Shown one piece after another: positions 1,325 through 46,704 of a stretch of DNA of 64,000 bases. The DNA is from an uncultured Planctomycetota bacterium (GTDB lineage Bacteria; Planctomycetota; Planctomycetia; Isosphaerales; Isosphaeraceae). Each line of letters opens with the position of its first letter. Positions within the stretch are counted from its first letter, which is position 1. The notes under the pieces were generated by a model. It saw only the letters and a program-made list of their open reading frames with translations, had not been told where the DNA came from and made no database searches. The stretch lies in NCBI GenBank assembly GCA_963845755.1, contig CAWJTV010000032.1:50159-114158 (forward strand), written 5' to 3'. The position numbers and the translations under genes are program-made.

Positions 1325-4300
1325 TCAGCGGTGGATCGTGGCGTCGAGATTGATGAGCGCGCTGCCGACGCATGCCCAGGCCGCCACCTCGGCGGCATCG
1401 AGCGTGTCGTCGATTTTCGCGTCACCCACACCGAGGAGTTTTTTCGCGGCATCGGTGTCGGCCTTGAACTGCGCGCGCTGCTCGTCGAGGAGCTTCCGCA
1501 GGATCTGCGCCTCCGACTCGCTCGGGTCACGGGACGTGCAGAGGCGGAACCCGTAGGCGAGGCGCTTCGCCTCTTCCTCGGGCTTCTTCAGATTGCGGGC
1601 GCGGCGGATGGCTTCCCGGTCCTTGAGCATCCTCTGCCCGAGCATCTTCGCGCACTCGACATAGGCCGGATCGTTGAGCAGCGTGAGCGCCTGGACGGGG
1701 GTCGTTGTGGTGGCGCGCGTCACGGTGCAACTGTCTCGCTTGACCGCGTCGAAGTTGAGCATGGACGGATAGGGCGACCCGCGTTTCCAGTAGACGTAGA
1801 GCGCGCGCCGGTACTGCCTCTCGTCGCCGTGACGTCGATAGTTGGACATGAAACCCTCGACCATCTTCCAGGCGTTCTTGGGCTGCACCGGCTTGACGCT
1901 CTCGCCGCCGATCTTTTCGACGAGGAGCCCCGAGACCGCGAGCGCATTGTCCCGGACCATCTCGGCGGACAAGCGGAGCCGTGGACCGCGGGCGAGGAGG
2001 CGGTTTTCCGGGTCGCGATCGAGCTTGGCTTTCGAAGTCGTCGACGCCTGGCGATAGGTCGCCGATAACACGATTCGCCTGTGGAGCTTCTTCAGGTCCC
2101 ATTGGCTGTCGACCAGCTCGGTGGCGAGATCGTCGAGGAGTTCGGGATGCGTGGGGAGCTCGCCCCGGGTGCCGAAGTCCTCGGCCGTCCTGACGATTCC
2201 GACCCCGAAATATTGCTTCCAGATGCGGTTGACCAGGACGCGCGCGGTCAACGGATGCTGTCGGGAAACGAGCCACTGCGCGAGCCCCAGCCGGTTGCGC
2301 GGCGCCCCCTTTGCCATCGGAGGTAGCACCGCAGGGGTCGCCGGATTGACGTTCTCGCCGCGATTCTTGTACAGGCCGCGCTTGAAGATATACGCCTGGC
2401 GCGGCTTCGCGAGCTCCTCCATGACGAGCGTCTGGGGGAGTCGCCGTTTGACGAGCTTCTCCTCGTCCTTGAGCTGGGAAAGTTCCTCGGCGATGATGCG
2501 CCCGACGGGGTCGATGTGAGACCGATAGAATTCGCGCAGCACTTTCTTCCGCCGCTCCGACGGCGAAAGCTTGTTCTCCTCCTCGGAGGACTTGAGCGGG
2601 GCGGATTTCTCACCGACAAGGCTGACCTTCATCGGCGCACCCGGCTTCGCGGAACTCTTAGTGTCGTCGCCCGCGCTCGAGGCGGCTGGCGCGGCCGCCC
2701 CGGTCGGGGCGGTTTTGCTCGCCGTCTTGGATGGCGACGCGGCGGGAGTAGAAGCGGAGGCAATGGCGCCGGGGCGTGCTCCCGCGACGGGTTTCAGGGC
2801 CTCGAGGCGAAGGGCCGTCGCGACCTCATGAGTCAGGACGTCGTCGCCCTCCGGCGTGATCTCGAACGTAAACGAGTCGCCGCCAGCGGGCCCGCCGCCC
2901 ATCGCACCGCCGGCCGGGAAGCCGCGACGGCCGTTGGGGCTCGCACCGTCGCCGTACACGGCCTTCACGACGATCTCGTTTTCACCCTGGCGGAGGCCGA
3001 TCCGGAACTTTTTCTCCGGATGGTTCTGGCCGCGCCCATCGTTTCAGCAAGGTCATCGTCGTTGATTTCGGGGACGACTGGCGCCTCCTTATCGTCTTCG
3101 GCCTTCTCGTCCTTCTTCGCGTCCGGGCCGTTCCCCGCGCCGGGGTCTTGGCGTCAGCTCCCTTGGGGGGAGCCGCGGGCGGCGGCGGAAGCGCGGTCTG
3201 TGCCAGCTCTCCGTTGACCCACATCCGGAAGCCCGCCGGTCCGCCAAGTTGCACGATCGCGGTGCGGGGGCGCGTTGAGACGATCTTGCGTGTGAGGTAG
3301 TAAGCGGAGTTGGCTCCCTGAAGGCGTGCCGCGGTGCCATCGCGCCACTTACGCTGCTCGGTCCAGGTGATCTTCTCGGGCTTTGGCTTGACCGCGCCGG
3401 CCTTGGCGGCTTCGGGCTTCGCTTCCGGCTTGACGTCCTTGGTCGCTTCGGTCCCGGGCTTTTCCGCAGCCCCGACGGCGTTCCCCTTGATCTCCTTGCC
3501 CCCATCGGGGCCTGGCTTGCCCGTCGGCTCGGGTTTCGGAGCCTCGCCCACGCCCGCACCGGCCGGCTTCTTCCCAGTCTCGCCGGCATCCTTCTTGGTC
3601 GCGGGTTTTCCATCGCCTGGAGATGCTGCGGGAGCGTCACCGATTTTGCCGCCGCCGGTCTGCCGCGAGGCGGCTTTGGCGGGCGCCGGGTCCTCTTTCT
3701 TGGCAGGGGTTTTGTCTCCGGCCGGCTTCGCGGGCGTGGCGGCGGGCGCTGGCTTCTCGGCGCCGTCCTTGCTCGCGGGCGGGAGCACGACCTTGGTGTA
3801 ACTCTTCTTCAGGTCAAGCGGCTCATCTTTGATGTCCTTCTCGGGCTCGAATGCCCTCGTGTAGGCTTTCGCGACGTCCTCTGCGGGAAATGGCCCGATC
3901 GAGCTCCAGAGCTTGGACAGTGCGGGCAGCATCAGCTCGCGGATGCGATCGTCCTGGGTGTAACTGATGCGGAAGCGGCCGATCAGGCTCTTGAACTTGG
4001 CGGCCGACGTCTGGTGCAGCGAGAAGCGAAGCACCGACGCCTCGTTCGTGTCGAGCGGTTCGAGTGGGAGGAAGATCGCTTCGTGGGGCTTCTTGCGTTC
4101 GTCGTCGACGATGCTCCAGCCGCCATACCCTCGACCCCCGAACGCCCCGCCGCCGCCCACGGGCTCGATGACGATCGCCGATTCAATCGACCCCGGCACC
4201 ATGTCGTACGGGTCGGGGTCTTCCCTGAGCTTCTGGTTGATGTCGGCCTCGGCACGCGCGACGTAGACGAGCGGCGGTTCCTGGCTCTCGGAGATCGTCG

Positions 4301-13800: not shown

Positions 13801-14327
13801 CGGTGTTTGTCAATCGCATGATTGAACTAACACCACGGAGGTTTGCACACGGCTCATCGGTGCGCGGATTAGCCAGGCCGGGGGAAACCTTGCTACTGGA
13901 TCTGGGGGGGACGGGACGGCCGATTATCGGCCGCGCGGTCAAACCGCCCCGCAACGAGATCCCGATCGATTGGTCGAACGGTCATTTCTTCCTCCGGATC
14001 CAGCCGCCACCGATCACCAAGCCCCCGAACATGACGAAGGAGCAGCGCGCGGCCTGGTACAAGACGTGGAGCACGACCGAGGAGGGGAAAGCCTATCTGG
14101 CCTATCAGGCTGATCCGAAAAGCTACGGCTTCAAGGTCGAGCGCGATGGCTCGTTCCGCATCGACGATGTCACCCCCGGCACGTATGACCTGACCATCCA
14201 GCTCTTCGACGGCCAGCGGCGCACGATCGCCACGGCCGAGCGGACCGTGGTCGTCCCGGCGATCCGCGGCGGCCGGAGCGACGAGCCGCTCGACCTCGGC
14301 GCGATCGAGCTGAAGGCGAGCCCATGA
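10804..14327 (+). CDS. BlaR1-like M56 metallopeptidase with C-terminal carboxypeptidase-regulatory-like repeats (several frameshifts)
   Basis: TM segments, HELVH zinc motif, FFHPAVW, REFACD; repeated G.V.D.DG.P..GA.V / TDADGRF units in ORFs 12034..13209 and 13206..14327. Confidence 0.85.
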
Positions 14328-34200: not shown

Positions 34201-35360
34201 ATGATCTCCCCCGCCCTCATCAAACCGACGCACAAGGCGATCGTGGCCTACTACGAGAAGCTCCAGGGCTACGACTCCCACAACGTCACCCACGAGATGG
34301 CCCTGCGCTCGGCGTTCCAGCAGCTCCTGGAGGAGACCGGCAAGTCCCACAAATGGACGTTGATCCCCGAGCAGACGGTGAAAGTCGGCGGCAAGTCCGT
34401 CCGGCCCGACGGCACATTCCGCGACGAGTGGCACTTGCCCGTCGGTTACTGGGAGGCCAAGGACACCGCCGACGACCTCAACGCCGAGATCCGGGCCAAG
34501 ATCGCCAAGGGCTATCCCGCTGGTCAACACGATCTTCGAGGACACCCGCGAGGCGGTCCTGTTCCAGAACGGCAAGGAGGCGTTCCGCATCCCGCTGACC
34601 GAGCCGGCCAAGCTCGCCGATCTGCTCAATGCGTTCTACGCCCATTCCAAGCCCGACATCGAGAGCTTCAAGCAGGCCGTCGCGCATTTCCAGGAGCGGA
34701 TCCCCGACCTCGCCCGGGCGCTCAACGAGCGGATCGTCGAGGCCCACAAGTCGAATGCGAAGTTCAAGGCCGCCTTCGCCGACTTCTTCGAATTGTGTCG
34801 TCAGTCGCTCAACCCGAACCTCCGGCGCGAGGCGGTCGACGAGATGCTGGTCCAGCACCTGCTGACCGAACGGCTGTTTCGCACGGTGTTCGACAACCCC
34901 GATTTCACCAGGCGGAACGTCGATCGCCGCCGAGATCGAGCGCGTGATCGAGGCCCTGGCCAGCCAGAGCTTCAGCCGTGCCGAGTTCCTCCGCAAGCTC
35001 GACCATTTCTACAAGGCCATCGAGGACGCCGCCCGCGGCCTCGACGATTGGAGCGATAAGCAGCACTTCCTCAACACGGTCTACGAGCGGTTCTTCCAGG
35101 GCTATTCGGTCAAGGTCGCCGACACCCACGGCATCGTATACACGCCGCAGGAGATCGTCGACTTCATGTGCGCCAGCGTCGAGGAGGTCCTCAAGTCGGA
35201 GTTCGGCATCGGCCTCGGCGACTCCGGCGTCCACATCCTCGACCCCTGCACCGGCACGGGTAACTTCATCGTCAGGCTGATCCGCCGCTTCCCCAAGAAA
35301 GACCTGCCCCGCATGTACCGCGAGCAGCTCTTCGCCAACGAGGTCATGCTCCTGCCCTAA
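34201..35360 (+). pseudogene. 5' part of a type ISP/IIG-like restriction-modification (N-6 DNA methylase) gene, truncated
   Basis: RPDG...YWEAKD nuclease-like motif; HFLNTVYERFFQGYSVKVADTHGIVYTPQEIVDFM and ILDPCTGTGNF; stops at LFANEVMLLP*, with no NPPY region following. Confidence 0.85.
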
Positions 35361-35374
35361 CAGCGAGGCCAACA

Positions 35375-37697
35375 ATGTCTGGGAGCGTTTCTTCCACCAA
35401 ACAACGACGTGCTGTCATTCTCACTGCCATTCGCGCAGAATACCAAGCGGTGCGCGCGTATCTTACTGACCCCAGGGAAGTTACACATCCCCAAGGGACT
35501 GTGTACGAGCAGGGCGATTTCATCGATTCTATGGGCCACACTTGGCATGTCGGGATTGTCGAGATCGGCGCGGGTAACCCTGGAGCTGCCCTCGAAACTG
35601 AGCGAGCCATCGCCTTTTTCAACCCTGATGCCGCACTATTTGTAGGAGTTGCAGGGGGGTTGAAGGAAGTCCGATTGTGCGATGTTGTCGCTGCGACTAA
35701 GATTTATGGATATGAATCCGGAAAATCTAATGACGAATTCCAGCCAAGACCAAATGTGGGTGAGACGTCCTACTCGATGGAGCAACGTGCACGGGCTGAG
35801 GCTAGAAAGGATAACTGGCTGAAGCGACTCAGAACACCGTTACTCGAAGCGCCGCGCGTCTATGTAGCCCCAATAGCGGCCGGCGAAAAGGTCGTTGCTT
35901 CAGAGAGATCTGTTGTGTATGGGTTTCTGCCTCCAGTTACAGTGACGCAATCGCGGTCGAGATGGAGGGACGCGGTTTCCTCCAAGCGGCCCGGGCAAAT
36001 CAAAGCGTTCAATGTTTGGTGGTCCGCGGAATATCAGACCTCATCTCGCAGAAAAGCGAAACGGACAAAGAAGGATACCAAGATCTCGCAGCAGAGACAG
36101 CGAGCCGCCTTTGCCTTCGAAGTCCTAGCCAACTTGGAGGGAGAGAAGACCAGTGAGTCTCCGCCGATTCCGTTTCCCTCAAGCCCCTCTCACAACCTAC
36201 CTTCTCTGAGCGAGAGATTTGTAACCCGCGAAGAGCAACTCCGCGACATCCGCGACGCGTTGACTCGCGATCGCAGACTTGGTGTCGTCCGGGAGTTTGT
36301 CATCTACGGGCATAACGGAGCGGGAAAGACATCATTGGCCATCGATTATGGCTGGACCTACCTTCTCGAATACGGGGGCATTTTCTTCGTCGATTGCTCG
36401 GCCGATCCTTTTTACGAAGGAATCGCCAACCTGTTACCTCGTGTACTGCCCGACGTTGCTTATGATTATTTCGGTGCACCTGAATATAAGCAAAGTGTGG
36501 CCATTCGAGTTAGAAGCCATCTGGAGGCCAGCAGCATTCCTTCGCTGCTCATACTCGACGACGTCCGTAATGCTGATGAGTGGGACCGGATTCGGCGCTC
36601 AGGCTTCCTACCGGGCGAGTCATGTCATCGGTTGATCACTACCACCGATCCCGAGCTTCCCGCCGAAGATGCATTCAGACTCGGAGGTTTATCAGTCGCG
36701 GAGGGAATTGATCTGTTGGCCGCACATCGAGGCGATATCCGATCAGAAGAGAACAGAAAGCACGCCGAATTCATTCTGGATTGGCTCGGAGGAGTCCCCT
36801 TCTTCTTAACGATCGTCGGGGTCTACATGCGACGCAAGCCGAAACTGACATGGTCGGATTTTGCCCGAAGCCTTCAAGACTCGGGGCTTGGTGCCATCCG
36901 TCGCGCGGAGGACGCGGCTCGATTTCGTACCGATCTTTACATCCGCCGAGTCAACCAAGTGCTGGATAACTTACTCGACTCGCTTTCAGATGCTGAACGC
37001 AGGGCATTGGAATATTCTTCATTACTATTTAATTCTTATATAATAAAAACAGCTATAATTTTACTATTGAATTTCGATCCCACACTCACTCTGCAGGTCA
37101 TGCCCGGCTATGAGAAGGAGCCCGCCCGCCATCGTCAACGAACTCGAGGAGGCTCAACTACTCGTGCCTCGCTTCGATGCCGGCACTCAAGCCCTAGCGG
37201 TGCACGAGATCCTGAAAAAGAAGTTAGTAGAACGCATAGATAATGTAAATGGGTTAAGAAAACAGTATTTTCAGAATATATATAACACAGCAGTTAAAAT
37301 ATTTCTTTTGCCGGCCAAAGACATCTTTCCAGAACGTCGATCCGCAGATGGCCCGAGTCAGCCTTCTCTGTTCTTTCACGTTATGTACGCAATATTCGAG
37401 GGGTTAGAAAGGTGTGGACATGTGCAGAATGCATCGGCCTATTATAATTATTGGTTGGATATGCGAGATACAATGAACACAGCAAGGATGCTAGCCGAGA
37501 AGCTAGGAGGGAGAGTGGATCTGCAATACGACGTTTTGACAGTTAAGCATATGAGGATTTCACCGATAGTTGTTGTTGAATTGAACAATCTGACCGAGGC
37601 AACTGCTTTGGCCAAGGAGAATCAGGGGGAGGTTAAACTAATTGTTAATCAATCGAATCAAGTGGTTGCGATTATCGTTGTCATCAAGATCAGGTAA
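35375..37697 (+). CDS. Purine nucleoside phosphorylase/MTA-SAH nucleosidase domain fused to an NB-ARC-like STAND NTPase (frameshifts near 35930, 36100 and 37120)
   Basis: AVILTA..AEY, GAGN, FVGVAGG, AAGEKVV, MEGRG, VVRGISD; Walker A GHNGAGKT, Walker B LLILDD; visibly more AT-rich than the flanks. Confidence 0.8.
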
Positions 37698-37718
37698 GGC
37701 GCTGGTTCCGTCTTTTCG

Positions 37719-37876
37719 CCGGCCCCGGCGGCGACCGCACTTCCGACCCCAACCGGCCCGACGACCCCGAATCCATCGTCCGCCTCGTCGGCCAGGTCGT
37801 GCGGGTGAGCATCGAGACGGTCAGGATCGTCGAGGGGTTGCCACCGGCTTTCGGCTGGCCGAACGAGCCCGCGTAA
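37719..37876 (+). repeat. Direct repeat R1: 3' end of a type ISP-like R-M gene
   Basis: Encodes GPGGDRTSDPNRPDDPESIVRLVGQVVRVSIETVRIVEGLPPAFGWPNEPA*; 134/143 identical to R2. Confidence 0.9.
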
Positions 37877-37899
37877 TGTGTCCCTCAGTTTCCCCTTTG

Positions 37900-38529
37900 C
37901 TAGTAGGTCTCAGGAAGCTCGCCGCGCCGGTGGCGTTCGTAGTGGCTATTGTTGATGCTCTCCCGGCGGGAGTTCGGCTGGCGTCGGTTCAACTTGGGCA
38001 GGTCCGACGGATACGCGAGCTCGTTCCTCAGATTTGCGGCCATGTCCGGGACATGGCGCCACTTCCAAAACGTCTTGATCTTGAAGATCTTCTCCCGGCG
38101 AACCTCGTTCAGCTTGTCTCGGTCCAGGCGCAAGAACCGGATCATCCTCCACCCGTCAACCGATAAACCCTCGATGGTCCCGTTCTCCTTCACGCGGAAG
38201 TGGGCCCCGTAAGCCACCTTGCACGGGTCGAGGATCGGCCACCTGTTCTGCTTGAACGAGTTGCAATCACCGCAGGAATACACCATGTTCTCGTAATCGA
38301 GGGCGAGGTGCGTCGCACGGCTCCGGGGATTCAGGTGTTCGACGTGATAGGCGTTCTGGCCCGAGGGGTACCAGACCTCTCGGGTGAGACAGAAGACGCA
38401 GCGGAACACGAACTCGTCGCGGAGCCAAGGCTTGTAAGCCTTGTACCTCCGGTAGTCAAATGGCCCGTGGATGCGGACGTGGCACACTCCGGGGTATGTG
38501 AAGGGCGCGGGCTCCGCGTCAGTCATCAT
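37900..38529 (-). CDS. HNH endonuclease
   Basis: LRDEF.FRCVFC...HVEH..PRS...LDYENMVYSCGDCNSFK. Confidence 0.85.
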   Translation of the reverse strand: MMTDAEPAPFTYPGVCHVRIHGPFDYRRYKAYKPWLRDEFVFRCVFCLTREVWYPSGQNAYHVEHLNPRSRATHLALDYENMVYSCGDCNSFKQNRWPILDPCKVAYGAHFRVKENGTIEGLSVDGWRMIRFLRLDRDKLNEVRREKIFKIKTFWKWRHVPDMAANLRNELAYPSDLPKLNRRQPNSRRESINNSHYERHRRGELPETY

Positions 38530-41201
38530 CAACCTCGTTGCTCGGCCTCTAACTCTAATTGCCTCACACGTTCGTCGAGCCAAGTCAGATCCTCTAGTGG
38601 GAGGGGGGCGAACCGGTCCAGATAGCTGTCCGCTGCGTCCTGGAACTGCTTCAACTCCCGCTGCTCTTCCTGGGTTAACCCCTCGTTGAGCTCCTTGTCG
38701 ATGAGGAAGGCCCGCCTATCGTTGTACCAGTTCCCAGGCTTCGACGGGATACCGGACCCTGGTAGGGGTGACTGCCGCCAAGCGGGATTCCAGGGCGCTG
38801 ATCTTGAAATCGACGGCGACCGGCCGTTCCGCGTGGCGCAGGTAACTGAGCACCTTCAACTGCAGTGACTCCGGCAGGCGGTATCCCTTGAGAATGATGG
38901 CATCGATCTCGAGGAGGGCGTCTCGCACCTCGCCGGGGCCGAACAGGCTCGGCCCATGCGGCTCCGCAAGGTCTGTCAGGTACTTCCGCACCAGCATTGT
39001 GACGGCTTCCTGTTCGCCATCGCTGTTCTGTGGGACCGGGATTAGGTCGAGCACGTTCTTGTTGTTGTGCATGCCGGTCGCGTGGCAGGCGACGAAGGCT
39101 CCCGCGAGAGGGTTATTCAGTACGGCTGCAAGGTATTCAATTGATGTTTCTTCATCTCTGGGCCACACTCCGTGGAAATTCTGGGTGCAGTATGACTCCT
39201 CATAATCAAGAAATGCGACGTGCCTCCAGCCTCGCACGGCTCTCCGGACCGCATTTACTATGACCTTCTTGCGACTCCACGGATGTTCACTACCCCTCCG
39301 CAATCCATCTTTTTTTACGTTCAGATATGTAGCCCGAGTCGGTTCGTAGGCCAGCAACTCTGTCTCGTCCGCGCTCCAGAATCCTCGCCGAAACCCCATG
39401 CGGGGCGTCTCTGAACGCCGCTCGGTCTCCGCGACAGAATTATGCCATTCGATCCCACGGTGTATCTTTGCGATACTTTTGAACTTCGAAACTACTCTCT
39501 AAGTATCTCCAAACCTCGATAAGGGCTGGTATGGCCAAGCTGGTGACCGCTTGCTCAACCGTCTTCGTAGCCTGATCCTGCCTCGTAAACGTATAGCCGG
39601 CGAGAAAAGGCTCGCGGTCCGTCTTCTCTAAAGATTTGAACGTAATTGTAATAAGATTATCCCCCCTCGGTGGTTCATATGCAATAAGGAGAGCACTACG
39701 ATGCCTAGAAATAAAAAAAACATTCTCCTCAGGCAACTCGACGATTTCAACGCTTCCGAATCGATCAGCTATTCTCCGACGAACCTCTCGGAATTCGTCG
39801 CCGCTCAGGATCGTATAAGGTAGGACAAAGCCAAGCATCCCGTCAGAGTGCAGAGCATCGAGCACTCGGTGGAGCAACTCGATCGGCTTGCGATCTGCCC
39901 TCACCCGCGCGTACCGGACTTTCTCCGATTGCGAGAATCTCTCGTAGGGCGGGTTGCAGACGATGACCCTCGCGTTCTCCAGCGAGCTTCGGAAGTCGGA
40001 CGAATGAAAGACGTCACCGAGCCTCAGCCGCCACCCGTTCGAGTTGGGAAAGTCGGCGAGCATCAGGCAGAGCCAGCTCACCTCCAAGGCGAACGAGTCC
40101 ATCTCATATCCCTCGAGCATCTCCACGAAGTATCGGTGACGCTCCTCAGCCGCCATGGGCGTTCGAAGGGCACCACGCAACCTCTGAAGTGCTGCGACGA
40201 GGAAGATCCCGTGGCCCGAGCAGGCTCCAGGATGAACCTCTCCCGCTCGTCGAGCTTCTCGATAGGCAGGCTTCGCACGATGTAGCGGGCGATGCTGGAG
40301 GGGGTTCCGTGGATGCCAAGCTTCTTCCGCAGCGGTTTCGTCACGAGCGTGTGCTCGTATATGTACGCGAGGACCTCGACCGAGAGGTTCTGGAAATTCA
40401 GCCTCCTCCATAGAATCGGGAACACGGCCTCCCAGACGGCCCGGTCGTCCAAGACGGGTTCGCTCTGGCCATAGTACGACTCGACTTTGCTCAAGACCTC
40501 GGCGGGGTCGGAGGAGCCGGAAATCTCGGCGAACTCCCCGAATCCGCGGTCGTGAAGCACCTTGGCGGCGAGGAAGCGGAAGGCCAACCGGAACGTCCCC
40601 TGCACTCGGCGAGCGAGAGCGACTCCCACTCCTTCCCGTAAACCCGAAGGGCCTCCGCGAGCACTTCGTTGAGCATCCGGTCCAGTTTCTCCCGGATCTG
40701 TCCTTCGAGCGCGGGGATTAGCCCTAGGTCGAAGAAGTCGAGCTGACGTTCACCGCCCAGGTCCAGGCCGATGTTCTTGCCACGGAGGATGGATTCCGCC
40801 GACCACGCACCTGAATACCGGACGAAGGCATCGCGGAGGTTCCCGGGGAGAATGATCTGGCGCTCGTCGTCGGGGGTCATCTCCTTGCCAACTCGCCAGG
40901 CGGAGATGGCGTCCTCGCGCACCTCGAAGGCGACGGAGGCACCCAGGGCGCGGAAGTCAGAGATCAGGCCCGCCCCGGCCTTGCCGTTCGGGACGACGAC
41001 GGCGATGCAGGCGGTCTGATAGGTGGGGGGCAACTGGCCGAAGGCGGCGACGGGCACCGTCCTGCGCGGGTCGCCGGGCTGGAACCAGTCAGTGAACTCG
41101 TAATCCCGGATTACGAGGCTGCCGTCATAGCCGAGGGGGGGCAATTCGGAAACGACCGAATCGAAGAGTCTCTTGTGTTTGTCGCTCTTGAACGCGGCCA
41201 T
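38529..41201 (-). CDS. N6-adenine DNA methyltransferase (Eco57I/type IIG-like) with TaqI-C-like TRD and helical tail; several frameshifts
   Basis: YIYEHTLV...GIHGTPSSIA, ILEPA(C)GHGIFL (motif I), IVCNPPY (motif IV), G.LGFVLP, YLAAVLN; pieces 40491..41201, 40078..40629, 39440..40411, 38716..39399 plus tail. Confidence 0.8.
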
Positions 41202-41313
41202 CCCATCCCCTCGCGCCTAGCCGATGCCTGATCCGCCCTCCTTCGCTCGACTTGGGTGCTCACGTCCTCCTGCCACAGCGACGCGCACCGCTCCGCTGGA
41301 TGCTGAACAAGCT

Positions 41314-41760
41314 TTAACTAATAGTACGGCTGGGAGCCCTGCAACGCCAGTCACTGATCGTTGGCGCCGTGACATGCACGCCGACTCCCAGCCGCGCCAG
41401 GCTACTCTTTCCCTCGACTCGCGCCGCGATGCGTGAACGAAGGGGCAGATAGATGCGCTGTTCGGTAAATCCCAGGACAAAGGACCTCGGCGGCAGGTCG
41501 TGCCCCTGCGGGCCGATCAGCACAGATTCGGTGTAGTTGTCGCTATAAATCAATTCCTTGATATCAAATCCGCTGGCGTGAGGTCGTATTGACGCGGGTT
41601 GACCGGTCGGCGAGCTTCTGAGGGGCTTCCATTTCCTGATGCTGCTGTCCAGCGTCAAATCGATGGCGGTCAACGTCCAGTGTTGGGGGTCGGGCCTGGG
41701 CCTGATGACGATCTGGCCGTGCTCGATCGCAGCCAGGATTTCTCGATCGCTGAGTATCAT
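41314..41760 (-). pseudogene. dcd: dCTP deaminase (Dcd/dUTPase fold), C-terminally truncated after TAPTI
   Basis: MILSDREI...AIDLTL...FVLGFT.Q...ARVEGKSSLARLGVGVHVTAPTI, then unrelated sequence. Confidence 0.75.
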
Positions 41761-42054
41761 ACCGCCACCGGTTCGATCTCATGCCAGAGCTCGCCGAACC
41801 TTACCCAGGCCCGGTTCGTGCCCTGACCCGGACTCGACGGGAAACTCGATGAGCGCGAGCCGCTTTCTCCGATCGATCTTGACGATCCCGACGGGAAGGT
41901 AATCCTCAGACCCACGACGGCGGATCATATTCTTGGGCACGTTGATCTGGTGCAATCGTCCTTCGGCATCCCTCAACTCCGCGATCCGGTCCAGGGGAGG
42001 CACGACTTCTTGGACTTCGCAACGAACTTCCGGATAATACGTGACCTCATCCAT
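41757..42054 (-). CDS. Small hypothetical protein, first gene of the dcd-MTase-HNH operon
   Basis: ORF 41779..42054; a 1-bp shift near 41825 gives RAWVRFGELWHEIEPVAV* overlapping the dcd ATG. Confidence 0.55.
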
Positions 42055-42250
42055 CTCCTACCACTCCCTCAAAGGTGGCCTGGAATTGAGCCGACAGTGT
42101 GAATGTCAGTATAGTATCACCCGGGGAGCCGCGGTCAACGAATTATTGCTCGACCACTCTGTCGCGCCGACTGGATGGTTTTCTCACTCGGCGACGTCGC
42201 AACATGACCAGCAATCGTAATCGTCGTCATGATCCGCCGGTTCGCGGAAG

Positions 42251-42463
42251 TTGTGGGTCATCGATCAATACCAGGTCAAGCCCATTACCGGCCTCGGAGG
42301 CGATCGCACTTCCGACCCCTACCGGCCCGACGACCCCGAATCCATCGTCCGCCTCGTCGGCCAGGTCGTGCGGGTGAGCATCGAGACGGTCAAGATCGTC
42401 GAGGGTCTACCACCGGCTTTCGGATGGCCGGAAGAGGCCCAGACCGAGAACGGAACGGTCTGA
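42251..42463 (+). repeat. Direct repeat R2: longer 3' end of a type ISP-like R-M gene
   Basis: WVIDQYQVK...SDPYRPDDPESIVRLVGQVVRVSIETVKIVEGLP, resembling the C-terminus of type ISP specificity domains; core 42288-42430. Confidence 0.9.
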
Positions 42464-42631
42464 GATCAGCAACCGTCTTCCCGTTTTCGCCAGAGCCAGA
42501 AGCGACACAAAGAAACTCGGTACGAGGCGCGTATCCGCCGGTGATTCTCATCGGAGATGGACCCATTCCTCCCGGGTAAGATAGAATCCAGACGTTGAGA
42601 TCGCGTCGTTGACCGAGCTGGAGTCCTCGAC

Positions 42632-42925
42632 ATGAACCGAACGGCCATCCTCGACCGTCTGAAGGCGGAAATCCCCACCCTGCGCCAGACATACGGGATC
42701 CGCTCCTTGGCCGTGTTCGGCTCGATGGCTCGGGGCGACGATCGGGAAGGCAGTGATGTGGACATCCTCGTCACGTTCGACGGCAAGCCGGACTTCGACC
42801 GTTTCATGGGCCTGAAGCTCGACCTCGAGGACATGCTCGGCCGCCCGGTCGATCTGGGTACCCCCGATACACTCCGGCCCGAGATGCGGGCGGAAGTCGA
42901 GAGGGACCTCATCCATGTCTCGTGA
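42632..42925 (+). CDS. MNT nucleotidyltransferase antitoxin (MntA-like)
   Basis: LAVFGSMARGDDREGSDVDILVTF...LEDMLGRPVDL. Confidence 0.9.
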   Translation: MNRTAILDRLKAEIPTLRQTYGIRSLAVFGSMARGDDREGSDVDILVTFDGKPDFDRFMGLKLDLEDMLGRPVDLGTPDTLRPEMRAEVERDLIHVS

Positions 42926-43252
42926 CTGGCAAGCCTATCTGGACGACATGAGAATAGCCTGCGAGAAGGTGATACGGTTCACCGCCGGCATGGATCGCCA
43001 AGCGTTCTTCGCCGATGACCGGACGTACCATGCCGCGATCCATTGCCTCCTCATCGTCGGCGAGGCCGCCAAACGCATCCCGGACGACGTGCGCTGCGCA
43101 TCCCTCAGGTGGAATGGCGTAAGATCGCCGGAATGCGCGATTGGCTGGCTCATGCCTACTTTTCGATCAACAACGACATTCTCTGGGACGTGATCGAATC
43201 GAAAGTTCCTGAGCTGTCGCGCGCACTCGAGGCGTTTCAGCAGCAGGGGTAG
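42915..43252 (+). CDS. HepT/DUF86 ribonuclease toxin, frameshift near 43095
   Basis: YL.DM...IVGEAAKRIP; W..IAGMRDWLAHAY (R-x4-H-x-Y). Confidence 0.85.
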
Positions 43253-43255
43253 ACC

Positions 43256-43607
43256 ATGGCCGTCAGACGCGGGACGACGCGACACGAGAAACGCGCTGTG
43301 AAGCCGAGCGTCCTCCGCGACATCGTGCGCCGCGTCGTCGAGGTGGCCCAGCCCGAGAAGATCATTCTGTTCGGCTCGGCTGCGGCGGGGAGATGGGACC
43401 CGACAGCGATGTCGATCTGCTGGTCATCAAAGGAGGCCGATTTCAACGGGGACGGCTCGTCGAAAAGATTTACAGCAACATGCACGGGGCGAGAGAGGCC
43501 GTCAACATCATCGTCGTCACCCGGAAGAGGTGGAACGCTATCGCGACACGCCGTGTCTGGTCATCTATCCGGCGTTGCGCGAGGGAAAGGTGATCTATGG
43601 GGCGTAA
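43256..43607 (+). CDS. Second MNT nucleotidyltransferase-domain protein (frameshifted)
   Basis: PEKIILFGSAA..G..DSDVDLLVI...ALREGKVIYGA*. Confidence 0.75.
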
Positions 43608-43780
43608 ACTGGAGGTGAGCGGGACCGAGGTCTCAGGCGAATTGGGACGCCGCCATCGGGAGAAAGTCGCGCAAGCGCTGCTCAATCCGTTCGGATGGGA
43701 CGCGTACGTCGTGGTCTGTGCCTTCTCATCCCGAGGTCACCGGATTCGCTTCTCGTTTCACCGAGCGGAGGAATCGACCG

Positions 43781-44161
43781 ATGGCTAAGCGCCCCTCAAA
43801 GCCCTACGGAGAACGGATCAAGGGATTGATGGCCGAGAAGTCGCGGCTGCTTTCCCAGGCCCAGGCCTTCGAGGATATGGGCCTGGAGGAGACGGCCCGA
43901 CCCGTGTGGTCTTGCGCCGCGTCGTATGAAGAGCGGATCGCGCCGCTGCTCGATGTGATCGGCCGCGACGCCGAAGCGGCCCTGCACCGCGTCAGCGCCG
44001 CCGCCTGCTACGAGAAGTCCGGTGACTGGAGCCGTGCGACCAATCTCTACCGTGCGGCGCTGGCCGGTCCGATGCCGGACGCGGCCAGGGCGGATGTGCA
44101 GCGAAAGCTATCGGCCTGCCTCGAGCAACTTCATCAGGCCGCGGTCGGCTCGGTCGTCTGA
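43781..44161 (+). CDS. Hypothetical helical (TPR-like) protein
   Basis: ATG preceded by GGAGG; SAAACYEKSGDWSRATNLYRAAL. Confidence 0.6.
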   Translation: MAKRPSKPYGERIKGLMAEKSRLLSQAQAFEDMGLEETARPVWSCAASYEERIAPLLDVIGRDAEAALHRVSAAACYEKSGDWSRATNLYRAALAGPMPDAARADVQRKLSACLEQLHQAAVGSVV

Positions 44162-44169
44162 GGTCATCC

Positions 44170-44248
44170 GCCCCGGCGGCGACCGCACTTCCGACCCCAA
44201 CCGGCCCGACGACCCCGAGTCCATCGTCCGCCTCGTCGGCCAGGTCGT
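44170..44248 (+). repeat. Direct repeat R3: truncated copy of the R-M 3' end
   Basis: 78/79 identical to R1 (one synonymous GAA/GAG change). Confidence 0.9.
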
Positions 44249-44319
44249 TAGCTTCCGAACTCCTCCTCCTGCCGCACGAGGCGGCAGGGGTCGGTGTCTC
44301 CAGTTACCTTTGCCACCGT

Positions 44320-44362
44320 AAAAAAATAACCCGACTGAGGCCTTTCGGCGGGTCAGCCGGGT
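44320..44362 (-). terminator. Intrinsic terminator-like hairpin downstream of hicB
   Basis: Minus strand acccggctga...tcagtcgggt followed by TATTTTTTT. Confidence 0.55.
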
Positions 44363-44461
44363 AAGAAGTATTGAAACTATCGTGCATTCCTCGAGAAAAA
44401 TGAACCTCGATTCGTCCAACGATGGCCGCGGCGGGCTGGAGCCCCTGCGCTGCCCGCTTGG

Positions 44462-44677
44462 TCAGGCGTCGACCTCGACGTATTCCACACGACTCGACGG
44501 CTCGGGGATGGGTAAACCGTCTTCTGCCATCCCCTCCAGGTGCAGCGCGATGGCCTCGCGGATCAGACGCTCGACTTCTTGCTCCGACTCGCCCGTGGCC
44601 ACGCACCCCGGCAGGTCCGGCACGTAGGCCGCAAGGTTCGTCCCCGCATCCTCGATGACGATCGCGTACCGCTTCAT
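44462..44677 (-). CDS. hicB: HicB family antitoxin
   Basis: YAIVIE...AYVPDLPGCVATGES..E....REAIALHLE...IPEP. Confidence 0.92.
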   Translation of the reverse strand: MKRYAIVIEDAGTNLAAYVPDLPGCVATGESEQEVERLIREAIALHLEGMAEDGLPIPEPSSRVEYVEVDA

Positions 44678-44690
44678 CGTCCCTCCGCCC

Positions 44691-45136
44691 TCAATCGTCC
44701 CAGCCAGCCTGCTTGAAAATGCTACTCAGTGTCGGTTCCAAAAGCCCCAGAGGGGCGACCGGACGTAGCCAGGGGCGTGAGCCCCTGGACGATCGACCGC
44801 GACCCCCTCGACCGTCGTTCGAGCCCCGGAGGGGCGACAGACGTCCTCAGGGCCACAGGGTGTCTGTCGCCCCTCCGGGGCTCCCGGATCGGAGGAACTC
44901 CCCTCGTCCAGGGGCTCACGCCCCTGGCTACGTGCTTCCGCCCCCATCCGGGGGCTCAGGAAGGGACTTATGGAACAGACTCTCAACGTGCCGGGCGGGA
45001 TGGTATGGCTCGGCTTCCCCGAAACGGTGACGCGACCGGGCTTCGTCGGATGTTTGAACTGAGAGTGATCGCCCTTCGACTTGACCCTGGCCCAGCCGTC
45101 GGCTCGGAGCCGACGGAGTATTTCGCTGACCTTCAT
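44691..45136 (-). pseudogene. hicA: HicA toxin interrupted by a MITE
   Basis: L.ADGW...KGDH.QFKHPTKPGRVTV...IPPGTL[insert]SSIFKQAGWDD*. Confidence 0.9.
44729..44982. mobile_element. 254-bp MITE (same TIR family as 32069-32188) carrying a large REP-like hairpin
   Basis: Ends gtgtcggttcca...tggaacagactc; TCA/TGA duplicated at 44726-44728 and 44983-44985; removal restores the hicA frame. Confidence 0.88.
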
Positions 45137-45442
45137 GCCGTGAGGCTATCGGATCGCGAATCAGTCGGTCAAGGAGGGACACGGCGACACATCTGACAAC
45201 GGGACGGGTCGACAATGACTTCCGTCCGGCTTCGCCCCACGATTTCGGAGACTCCTCGTTGAACGCCACCACGATTTGCCCCGAAGGGGCAGCCACAAAC
45301 CAGCCCGGGGCAACGCCCCGGGGACCGAAGAACCCTCCCCGGAACAGCCCTGAAAGGGCGGCCCAAGAACGGTCGCCTGGCCCGCCTTGTGTCGCCCCTT
45401 CAGGGCTGGGATTGGGGGTGGGCGACCGAGTCCCGGGGCGTT

Positions 45443-46430
45443 CAACTTATTCCATTTGGAACGTAAGTCCTTGTCGATTCACGATCCGCACAGCATTGAT
45501 CAGCAGTTTGGCCCAGACCCAACGCCACACCCGCCACGACCGGCGCACCCAGGCCGGCAGCGGACCCAGGCCGCCACCGAAGGAGGTCGCCTGGCCGAAG
45601 GATCGCTCGATCGCGCTGCGCATCGCGTAGAGGCTCTTCCCGAAATCTCCCTGCAACAGCTCGATGCAGCGGAGGCGGTACGGGCTTTGGCGGCGGTGTC
45701 CCAGTCCGGCCTTGGGGTCCTCGCCGGGGCTACCAACTGGTAGCCCGCGGCGCCCGCCGCGTCGAAGACCGGGTTGGCGTCGTACTCGCCATCGCCCAGC
45801 ACGTAGCCACCGCCGCCGCAGTCGGCCAATTCCGGCAGCAACTGCTCGGCGGCCTTGGTCTCGGCGACATTCAGCGGTGTGATCGAACACACCTCGGGCA
45901 TCGGACGGTTGCTCCAGACGGCGTGCAATTTGTAGCCCTTGGCGATCTTGCCGGCGCCGTGGCCATTGCGGGCATCCGGATCGTGACTGGCACCACCAAC
46001 CGGCAAGGGCTTACCGTCGAGGATCTGTACCAACCGCGGGGGGACTACATCGCGGAGCCGCGTCGCCAAAGTCCGCATGAGGACGCCCACGGCCAAGCTC
46101 CGGAGTCGTCGGCTCAGAGTCGAGGGCGCGGGCAAACGACCCGGCTGGAGCGTCGTGGTCTTCCAGTGCCGAGGATCACAAGCCCAGCAGGCCGGTCGAT
46201 CGTGAAGGGCGGCCCACAGGTGGACCAGGACCAAGATGTGGGGCTGGTAGGAGACGTTGACCTGGCGGATCGAGCCACCCACCGCCATGACGAGGTGATA
46301 CAGTTGCGGCCAGAGTTCCAGTTCCATAGTTGCCCTCCTCTGAGGATTGTCTCTACTTCCATACATAGATACGATCCTGGGAGGGAAATTGTTCTGACAT
46401 AAAGACTTGCGACCTAAATGGAATAAGTTG
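45443..46430 (-). mobile_element. 988-bp insertion sequence with 15-bp perfect TIRs and a GTT target duplication
   Basis: caacttattccattt at 45443 and aaatggaataagttg ending at 46430; GTT at 45440-45442 and 46431-46433. Confidence 0.9.
45447..46327 (-). CDS. DDE transposase (IS4/IS5/IS982-like), frameshift near 45720
   Basis: PSTLSRR, LDGKPL, GYKLH, LGDGEYD, Y..R..IERSF; the stop lies inside the TIR. Confidence 0.85.
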
Positions 46431-46704
46431 GTTGCCCCGGGCTGGTATGTTTGGCCCCTTCAGGGCCACGACGATCCGCCCAAGGCAGGCATCAGTTCGG
46501 TGGTGTTCGGCGAGAAGTCTCCGATCTCAAGCCAGCGGTCCGACGCGGTCGTACACGGGGGAGAGACCCGGCACGGCCCGCGTACGTTGTCGGAGAAGAG
46601 GGGTCGGTTGTACCATGGGGAGGGTCATGAGGTCGGAATCCATGCCCTTCGTGCAGAACAGACGTCAAGGATAGAGCCCGAGTCGCGGCACCTCAGTCAA
46701 TAAT

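What the first reader, a model, noticed from the sequence alone, without database searches (positions are those of the whole stretch)
34201..45136. Defence-cassette array delimited by repeated 3' ends of a type ISP-like R-M gene
Seen: the R-M gene stops at ...NEVMLLP* (35360) and its middle is absent. Sequence coding for its apparent C-terminus recurs in the same orientation at 37719-37876, 42251-42463 and 44170-44248. The blocks around these repeats are nucleosidase-STAND | R1 | HNH-MTase-dcd-orf | R2 | MNT-HepT, MNT, TPR-like | R3 | hicAB. R1 and R3 begin within about 3 nt of the same point, and no integrase or attC is visible. Knowledge: WVIDQY..K...DPN..DDP..IVRL.GQV..VS.ETV.IV..LP resembles the type ISP C-terminus. 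Inference: the R-M 3' end acts as a recombination or capture handle that builds an integron-like, shufflable array of defence cargo.
Basis: partly seen in the sequence, partly recalled or inferred. Interest (0 to 1): 0.85.

Follow-up and report, generated by a model that had tools for sequence, protein, structure and literature searches.

The report
Leftover restriction-gene ends between defence genes
Three leftover tail ends of one broken restriction-enzyme gene sit between blocks of anti-virus and toxin-antitoxin genes; they look like scars of repeated gene swapping by ordinary recombination, a pattern that recurs at this gene in many bacteria, and not like a dedicated gene-capturing machine.

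Summary
A DrdV-like type IIL restriction-modification (R-M) gene, ISP-like but without helicase, stops after about 385 of 1,030-1,050 codons. Three same-strand copies of its 3' end (R1, R2, R3) separate defence and toxin-antitoxin cargo.

It is not an integron. An attC scan found 0 sites in the window but 4 at the genome's real integron on another contig. The repeats do not fold, and the contig has no tyrosine recombinase.

The pattern recurs in other phyla and in metagenome contigs; L089 has the same layout. Stump starts spread over 600 nt, so there is no fixed att site. Neighbouring copies differ mostly at silent sites (pN/pS 0.25-0.51 in 10 of 12 pairs), so they are ends of different working alleles. 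Of 14 other stump-cargo-stump alleles, 12 carry R-M, TA or Abi genes.

Best reading (0.6): sequential displacement by homology-anchored recombination, as proposed for Rhs/T6SS arrays. Ongoing shuffling is not shown, and the 3' bias beside intact genes is weak (4 of 61 versus 2 of 58). The scan found this before in another genome (e1-6827270).

The parts
34201..35360 (+). 5' stump of a DrdV-like type IIL R-M gene (nuclease, coupler, start of MTase), about 385 of 1,030-1,050 codons; two 1-nt frameshifts near 34510 and 34920
   Evidence: Pfam ISP_coupler and N6_Mtase; PADLOC PDLC03621/03597; nhmmer model positions 6-1145 of 3049; frameshifts
35357..35374 (+). Left junction: R-M sequence ends about 16 nt before the cargo A start codon
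35375..37697 (+). Cargo A: PNP_UDP_1 nucleosidase + NB-ARC/STAND ORF (35375-37243) and a 195-aa ORF of no known family (37110-37697); probably one frameshifted gene (inferred); 43-56% GC against about 60-70% in the flanks
37719..37876 (+). R1: displaced 3' end of the R-M gene with its own stop codon; starts 21 nt after the cargo A stop
37900..38529 (-). Cargo B: HNH endonuclease (PtuB-like, below the curated cut-off)
   Evidence: 84% nt identical copy in G497 and 83% in G457
38530..41201 (-). Cargo B: N6 methyltransferase (Eco57I/N6_Mtase) plus TaqI_C-like specificity part, frameshifted in this assembly
41314..41760 (-). Cargo B: dCTP deaminase-like (DCD)
41779..42054 (-). Cargo B: 91-aa ORF of no known family
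42253..42463 (+). R2: longest displaced 3' end (about 70 codons), with a tail different from R1
   Evidence: PDLC03597 positions 1582-1636 of 1646; model 2893-3046
42632..43252 (+). Cargo C: MNT antitoxin (42632-42925) and HepT-like toxin (42915-43252, frameshifted)
43256..43609 (+). Cargo C: second MNT-like gene (frameshifted; no Pfam hit, family read from the sequence)
   Evidence: 84-87% nt identity in G478, G001, G475
43609..44161 (+). Cargo C: small ORF and TPR-like ORF
   Evidence: 75-78% nt identity in G001, G495, G035
44170..44248 (+). R3: 79-nt displaced 3'-end piece, cut on both sides; starts 8 nt after the TPR-like stop
44462..45136 (-). hicB (44462-44677) and hicA (ends in a multicopy palindromic repeat at about 44741-44960)
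45432..46441 (-). Multicopy IS (DDE_Tnp_1, 41-nt inverted ends) at the right edge; not part of the repeat system

Best explanation
The locus is a defence hotspot built on a DrdV-like R-M gene whose conserved 5' half and last ~600 nt flank a variable target-recognition domain (TRD). Incoming DNA from relatives carries another allele of the gene plus its downstream defence or TA genes. It anchors by RecA-type recombination in a conserved block and resolves at the other side by a non-homologous join inside the resident gene's 3' block (homology-facilitated illegitimate recombination). Each event pushes the old gene end and its cargo downstream, so R1-R3 are ends of successive alleles. A further deletion or replacement removed the gene's middle and left the 5' stump directly before cargo A. 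Shown: gene family, repeats, allele-like divergence, recurrence, variable breakpoints, absence of attC and of a linked integrase. Inferred: the recombination route, the order of events, and any later use of the stumps as homology arms.
For: Thirty full-length proteins from the 80 loci carry both the window's N-terminal part (56-79% identity) and the repeat peptide. Mean nt identity is 0.40-0.49 over the TRD and 0.59-0.73 over the last 600 nt. 64 of 67 5'-truncated 3' ends start at model position 2379 or later, spread up to 2976; 20 of 21 5' stumps end by position 1366. pN/pS is 0.36 for R2/R1, 0.25 for R2/R3 and 0.34-0.51 in 8 of 10 pairs from other loci. L089 repeats the layout with other cargo. 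12 of 14 scanned stump-cargo-stump alleles outside the window have R-M, TA or Abi Pfam hits (8 of 10, 4 of 4). Window cargo occurs in other order or orientation beside a 3' end in G478, G472 and G457, and without any stump in 9 of 9 other cargo loci. The genome has recA, comEC and dprA. The same model was proposed for V. cholerae T6SS and Rhs arrays (PMC5361080, passages).
Against: No event was observed and no empty or intermediate allele from the same species is at hand. The 3' bias beside intact genes is weak: 4 of 61 have an extra 3' piece downstream, 2 of 58 an extra 5' piece upstream. Loci were picked with a C-terminal query, which favours kept 3' ends. Two pairs look like plain duplications (pN/pS 1.60 and 0.80). 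R1 and R3 start within a few nt, and 7 stumps start at model 2909-2911 (6 in the list plus L192; partly kin), which hints at preferred breakpoints. Stumps start within -3..+12 nt of a same-strand stop in 11 of 39 cases (1.4 expected), tighter than random joining predicts, though only 2 of 19 (0.7 expected) in the metagenome set. The model needs a separate step for the 5' stump. PMC5361080 notes that this kind of recombination is rare.
Confidence: 0.6

Rival explanations
1. [quoted passage not shown] The stumps would then be reusable, RecA-dependent handles.
For: The L051 first pair is 97% identical over 272 nt and runs past the stop codon, with pN/pS 1.6. Identical stump junctions recur at separate places in one genome (L197/L198). 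Repeats of 79-400 nt fit the class described in PMC2853133 (passages and Discussion).
Against: R1 and R2 have different tails and silent-site bias. No circle or deletion allele was seen. Window cargo homologues lack stumps in 9 of 9 loci. An integrating foreign-allele circle would also give allele-like differences, so this rival is not cleanly separated from the best reading.
Confidence: 0.2
2. Decay alone: tandem whole copies of the gene, or random deletions in a defence island, eroded to their ends with no role for homology.
For: A single internal deletion leaves both ends. Deletion joins without cargo are common (7, 2). Some genomes hold several full copies (G540 has 8).
Against: No locus held has two full-length copies within its fetched stretch. 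The G540 copies are dispersed. Stump starts are skewed to the last 670 nt (64 of 67). In 61 genomes of one family the C-terminal 131 aa gave 33 matches and the N-terminal 131 aa gave 14; the C-terminus is more conserved and the seed genome gave 12 and 4 of these.
Confidence: 0.12
3. A dedicated site-specific, integron-like system uses a core inside the R-M 3' end, with the recombinase supplied in trans.
For: R1 and R3 share a start. The genome has an integron integrase (TIGR02249, 485 bits, contig C3). TAAC at the left junction and GTTAG at R3's right junction resemble attC cores (seen in the sequence; motif recalled).
Against: The attC scan found 0 sites in 64 kb against 4 distinct canonical sites near the C3 integrase (a simple home-made scan that missed at least one site visible by eye). 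Fold z-scores are 0.02 to +1.63. None of 43 tyrosine-recombinase matches lies on C32. Starts spread over 600 nt. Serine recombinases were not searched.
Confidence: 0.05
4. Assembly artefact.
For: The assembly is indel-rich. The one run found covers about 6% of the words and bridges no repeat.
Against: The copies differ by 8% with silent-site bias and have distinct tails. The same layout occurs in other assemblies and in metagenome contigs.
Confidence: 0.03

Closest known systems
Sequential displacement leaving orphan 3' ends (V. cholerae T6SS effector-immunity arrays, PMC5361080, passages read; Rhs C-terminal displacement seen only as cited there)
   Same: Integrase-free accretion at a gene with a conserved anchor; old 3' ends and their downstream genes are pushed back; attributed to homology-facilitated illegitimate recombination.
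   Different: Here the anchor is an R-M gene, the orphan piece is the conserved end and not the variable toxin tip, the cargo is unrelated defence or TA genes, and the lead gene is itself broken.
R-M insertion with long target duplication and allelic substitution of R-M types (PMC2853133, passages and Discussion read)
   Same: R-M-containing cargo lies between long direct repeats with no mobility gene; one R-M type replaces another; type IIG genes have variable TRD alleles.
   Different: The repeats here are coding ends of another R-M gene, come from different alleles, and are stacked three deep.
DrdV type IIL R-M enzyme (bioRxiv 10.1101/2021.01.06.425610, passages read; best PDB hit 7LO5, 1,029 aa, whose identity as DrdV is recalled and fits the length)
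   Same: An intact relative (L066) matches over residues 21-1022 at E 5e-211; domain order nuclease, connector, MTase, TRD; no helicase.
   Different: The window copy is a 5' stump plus three 3' stumps and cannot encode the enzyme.
Integrons and CALINs (defining features recalled)
   Same: Tandem cargo separated by repeated sequences; ORF ends often abut the repeat; TA and defence cargo.
   Different: No attC, no hairpin, no linked IntI, no fixed crossover point, cargo on both strands.

Membership tests
Type ISP R-M | ISP coupler, N6 MTase and Type_ISP_C domains | tested here: met
   Window stump: coupler and N6_Mtase. Intact relatives L066 and L051: all three.
Type ISP R-M | SF2 helicase-like ATPase between nuclease and coupler | tested here: not met
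   The coupler starts at about residue 160 of a 1,040-aa protein; no helicase Pfam hit; LlaGI and LlaBIII align only from residue 187.
DrdV-like type IIL R-M | Single chain of about 1,030 aa: nuclease, connector, MTase, TRD | tested here: met
   Met for intact relatives; the window holds only fragments.
DrdV-like type IIL R-M | One-strand methylation and downstream cleavage | not testable with these tools
   Needs biochemistry.
Integron / CALIN | attC sites with R and L boxes | tested here: not met
   0 in the window, 4 distinct canonical sites near the C3 integrase with the same scan.
Integron / CALIN | Repeat forms a stable single-strand hairpin | tested here: not met
   6 of 6 folds were no better than shuffles.
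Integron / CALIN | Linked IntI | tested here: not met
   IntI is on C3; no tyrosine-recombinase match on C32. A CALIN would not need one.
Site-specific integrative element (att scars) | Fixed crossover core or tRNA target | tested here: not met
   Starts spread over model 2379-2976; no tRNA in the window. Local clusters of starts exist.
Insertion with long target duplication | Repeats >30 bp, insert <20 kb, no mobility gene | tested here: met
   79-152 nt repeats; inserts of about 4.4 and 1.7 kb; no recombinase between them.
Insertion with long target duplication | Empty site with one copy in a close relative | tested here: inconclusive
   G495 and G497 lack the whole 31.5-55.6 kb interval, R-M gene included; no conspecific genome was available.
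Sequential displacement (HFIR) | Orphan ends derive from different functional alleles, with variable junctions | tested here: met
Sequential displacement (HFIR) | Microhomology at the illegitimate junction; RecA dependence | tested here: inconclusive
   Cargo homologues diverge right at the ORF ends, so donor flanks are unknown; recA, comEC and dprA are present.

The most novel reading that the evidence does not exclude
DrdV-like genes act as a cross-phylum socket. Once a defence module sits between a 5' and a 3' stump, the conserved blocks serve as homology arms that swap it for an intact R-M gene, or for another module. The stacked 3' repeats let blocks excise, amplify and reinsert by RecA alone: an integrase-free functional analogue of an integron, in which cargo is trimmed to whole ORFs. 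Stumps would then be a marker for finding new defence genes.
Probability: 0.25. Interest if true: 0.7.

Novelty: new variant of a known kind. Interest (0 to 1): 0.42.

Why it matters
Many defence hotspots have no integrase, and how they turn over is open. This gene family leaves readable scars: allele-specific ends with variable breakpoints, so the route can be tested by comparing strains. The stumps also point to candidate defence genes. Several cargo ORFs beside them have no Pfam or NCBIfam hit (for example in L067, L076, L090, L056), while most annotated cargo is R-M, TA or Abi. No background rate of defence genes was computed for these loci.

Tried and rejected
- attC scan and folding: negative.
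- TAAC/GTTAG junction motifs as IntI crossovers: rejected, because the native R-M sequence does not supply the required bases and other junctions share no motif.
- tRNA-targeted island: no tRNA in the window.
- Promoter and terminator scan: 6 and 7 sites against 3.4 and 9.8 in shuffles, uninformative.
- Reads: one low-share DNA run, contigs only, no RNA holder listed, no joint between repeats and no bridging piece; no evidence either way.
- Phylum sample: 2 of 300 other genomes matched the 61-aa query, each single-copy.
- Plasmids: 226 records with 233 places, all under 60% identity and mostly annotated type ISP or helicase, so repeated ends are rare there.
- Viral contigs: 2 loci, no array.
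- Frameshifts as a sign of decay: rejected because of the assembly's indel rate.
- Atlas search of the 91-aa ORF: only unnamed clusters, low recognition score.
- Literature: searches listed no paper describing stacked 3' ends of DrdV-like or type ISP genes. Only listings were seen for most hits, most subscription journals are not in the library, and no supplements were opened.
Full report
Observation. The window is part of contig C32 of a 14.3-Mb, 49-contig assembly. The gene at 34201 reads as an R-M protein through two 1-nt frameshifts and stops at NEVMLLP* (35360). Six intact or longer relatives continue with YY there, so this is a junction with foreign DNA about 16 nt before the next start codon. 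R1 and R2 are 92.1% identical over 152 nt; R3 is 98.7% identical to R1 over 79 nt. No other 3'-end copy exists in the assembly. Near-identical repeats elsewhere in the assembly differ by 1.8 gaps per kb pairwise, and rpoB is split in two frames. The roughly ten frameshifts in the locus are therefore probably sequencing errors.

The gene family. A genome scan with a 66-aa C-terminus kept the best 80 of 558 loci. Thirty of them gave full-length proteins that hold both the window's N-terminal part and the repeat peptide. [quoted passage not shown] Pfam shows ISP_coupler, N6_Mtase and Type_ISP_C and no helicase. The DrdV preprint (passages) describes a 1,029-aa type IIL enzyme whose MTase and TRD resemble type ISP. 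That 7LO5 is DrdV is recalled; the code is not in that text. The gene is ISP-like but type IIL.

Not an integron. The genome has an integron integrase on C3. None of 43 tyrosine-recombinase matches is on C32. A simple attC scan returned 7 rows near the C3 integrase (4 distinct canonical sites, one seen on both strands, and 2 weaker rows) and none in the 64-kb window. The repeats fold no better than shuffles in 6 of 6 tests. There is no tRNA in the window. Serine recombinases were not searched.

Recurrence. A 3,049-position DNA model from 31 full genes finds extra 3' pieces beside another 3' end in 7 of the 80 loci: L049, L051, L067, L076, L089, L092 and L096. L089 (Gemmataceae by its record title) has the window's layout: 5' remnant, an R-M system, 3' piece, AAA_21 + DUF4276, 3' piece, TacA/GNAT pair, truncated 3' piece. 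In 80 metagenome and 2 viral loci the 83 3' ends were classed as 26 full, 35 at contig edges, 13 orphan, 4 cargo-in-the-middle, 2 after another 3' end, 2 deletion joins and 1 insertion. In the window's own family 30 of 120 other genomes matched the full protein, mostly as fragments. One of these, G457, has two 3' pieces around a DCD gene. Cargo is defence-rich where annotated: 13 of 31 loci scanned and 9 of 18 metagenome loci have R-M, TA or Abi hits. For alleles in which cargo replaces the middle the count is 12 of 14. No background rate was run.

Breakpoints. 64 of 67 truncated 3' ends start in the last 670 nt, spread from model 2379 to 2976, and 20 of 21 5' stumps end by 1366 (seven loci were skipped as short, duplicate or further loci of one genome). 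These are the conserved blocks on each side of the variable TRD. There is no shared core, but R1 and R3 start within a few nt and several stumps start at 2909-2911, partly through kinship. Stumps start right after a same-strand stop in 11 of 39 cases against 1.4 expected (includes the window and one homologous pair; L027 left out). The effect is weak in the metagenome set (2 of 19 against 0.7).

Origin of the copies. R2 against R1 has 6 silent and 6 replacement differences (pN/pS 0.36), and R2 against R3 gives 0.25. Eight of 10 pairs elsewhere give 0.34-0.51 and two give 0.80 and 1.60 (short sequences, small counts). Most divergence thus arose under selection, in working alleles, and not by drift after a local duplication. 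No held locus has two full genes in tandem.

Cargo mobility. In G478 a 3' piece is followed on the same strand by homologues of the MTase end, the HNH and the second MNT. In the window these genes are inverted and separated. G472 has MNT beside a 3' end. Nine other loci with window cargo homologues have no R-M piece at all, so cargo and stump are not a fixed cassette. G495 and G497 join the flanks directly and lack window 31.5-55.6 kb, so the array lies in an accessory interval.

Polarity control. In 61 genomes of the family of G537, the C-terminal 131 aa gave 33 matches in 15 genomes and the N-terminal 131 aa gave 14 in 9. The seed genome gave 12 and 4 of these, and the C-terminus is more conserved. 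Beside intact genes the bias is weak: 4 of 61 against 2 of 58. The 3' end is therefore not uniquely a handle; both conserved ends are left behind.

Mechanism. The best fit is sequential displacement by homology-anchored recombination, the model proposed for T6SS and Rhs arrays (PMC5361080, passages), with recA, comEC and dprA present. Single-crossover insertion with long target duplication (PMC2853133) is the main rival and may act as well. The route is inferred, not shown. A 2025 review (PMC12707154, passages) describes defence islands with cluster replacement, but nothing like these stacked ends appeared in the passages seen. Reads were inadequate to test shuffling.

Earlier scan notes. e1-6827270 reports the same phenomenon in another genome and agrees with this reading, which I had reached before seeing it. 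e1-2961813 and e1-4549072 gave the lead to the displacement literature, which I then read. e1-2158308 reports a 5' stump of a DrdV-like gene. These are unchecked notes and are not counted as support.

Verdict. Real, recurrent and useful as a marker, but a variant of known integrase-free turnover and not a new capture machine. Interest 0.42.

Noticed in passing
G000:C3 about 153900-162186 (outside the window): A complete integron: IntI over the curated cut-off, at least four attC sites, and a recombinase-like and a reverse-transcriptase-like ORF (read by eye) inserted in the array.
   Followed up: partly
window 41314-42054; L154:8013-9040; L185; L191: A small unknown ORF paired with a DCD gene sits antisense just before an R-M 3' piece both here and in G457 (DCD 34% identical; the small ORFs only weakly alike). 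Possible uncharacterised defence or TA-like pair.
   Followed up: partly
window 37900-41201; L183:8049-13468; L186; L147: The MTase + TaqI_C-like + HNH module recurs in several genomes of the family, in two of them directly followed by the second MNT-like gene. Candidate R-M-like system.
   Followed up: partly
window 35375-37697: Low-GC nucleosidase-STAND fusion with a C-terminal part of no known family; candidate NLR-like defence gene. No tblastn homologue in the own genome or in the loci held.
   Followed up: partly
window R2; L024, L025, L147, L154: A tail variant with a 2-aa insertion occurs in five genomes of this family, always as a fragment among the loci held.
   Followed up: partly
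window 44741-44960: A palindromic repeat of about 220 nt with many copies in the genome overlaps the 3' end of hicA.
   Followed up: partly
L051:13161-13385 and 14046-14270; L096:5684-5906: A dispersed repeat of about 225 nt precedes 3' stumps in Caldilineaceae loci and also occurs alone in both orientations.
   Followed up: partly
G540 (genome of L060): Eight dispersed full-length-size DrdV-like genes in one genome.
   Followed up: no
L045, L071, L072, L087, L104, L107, L109, L141: Insertions of roughly 0.2-1.4 kb interrupt the gene, several near residues 880-925; some look like palindromic repeats.
   Followed up: no
window 31538-55587: This 24-kb interval is absent at the matching site in G495 and G497, which instead carry a hicB-like gene a few kb further on.
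   Followed up: partly
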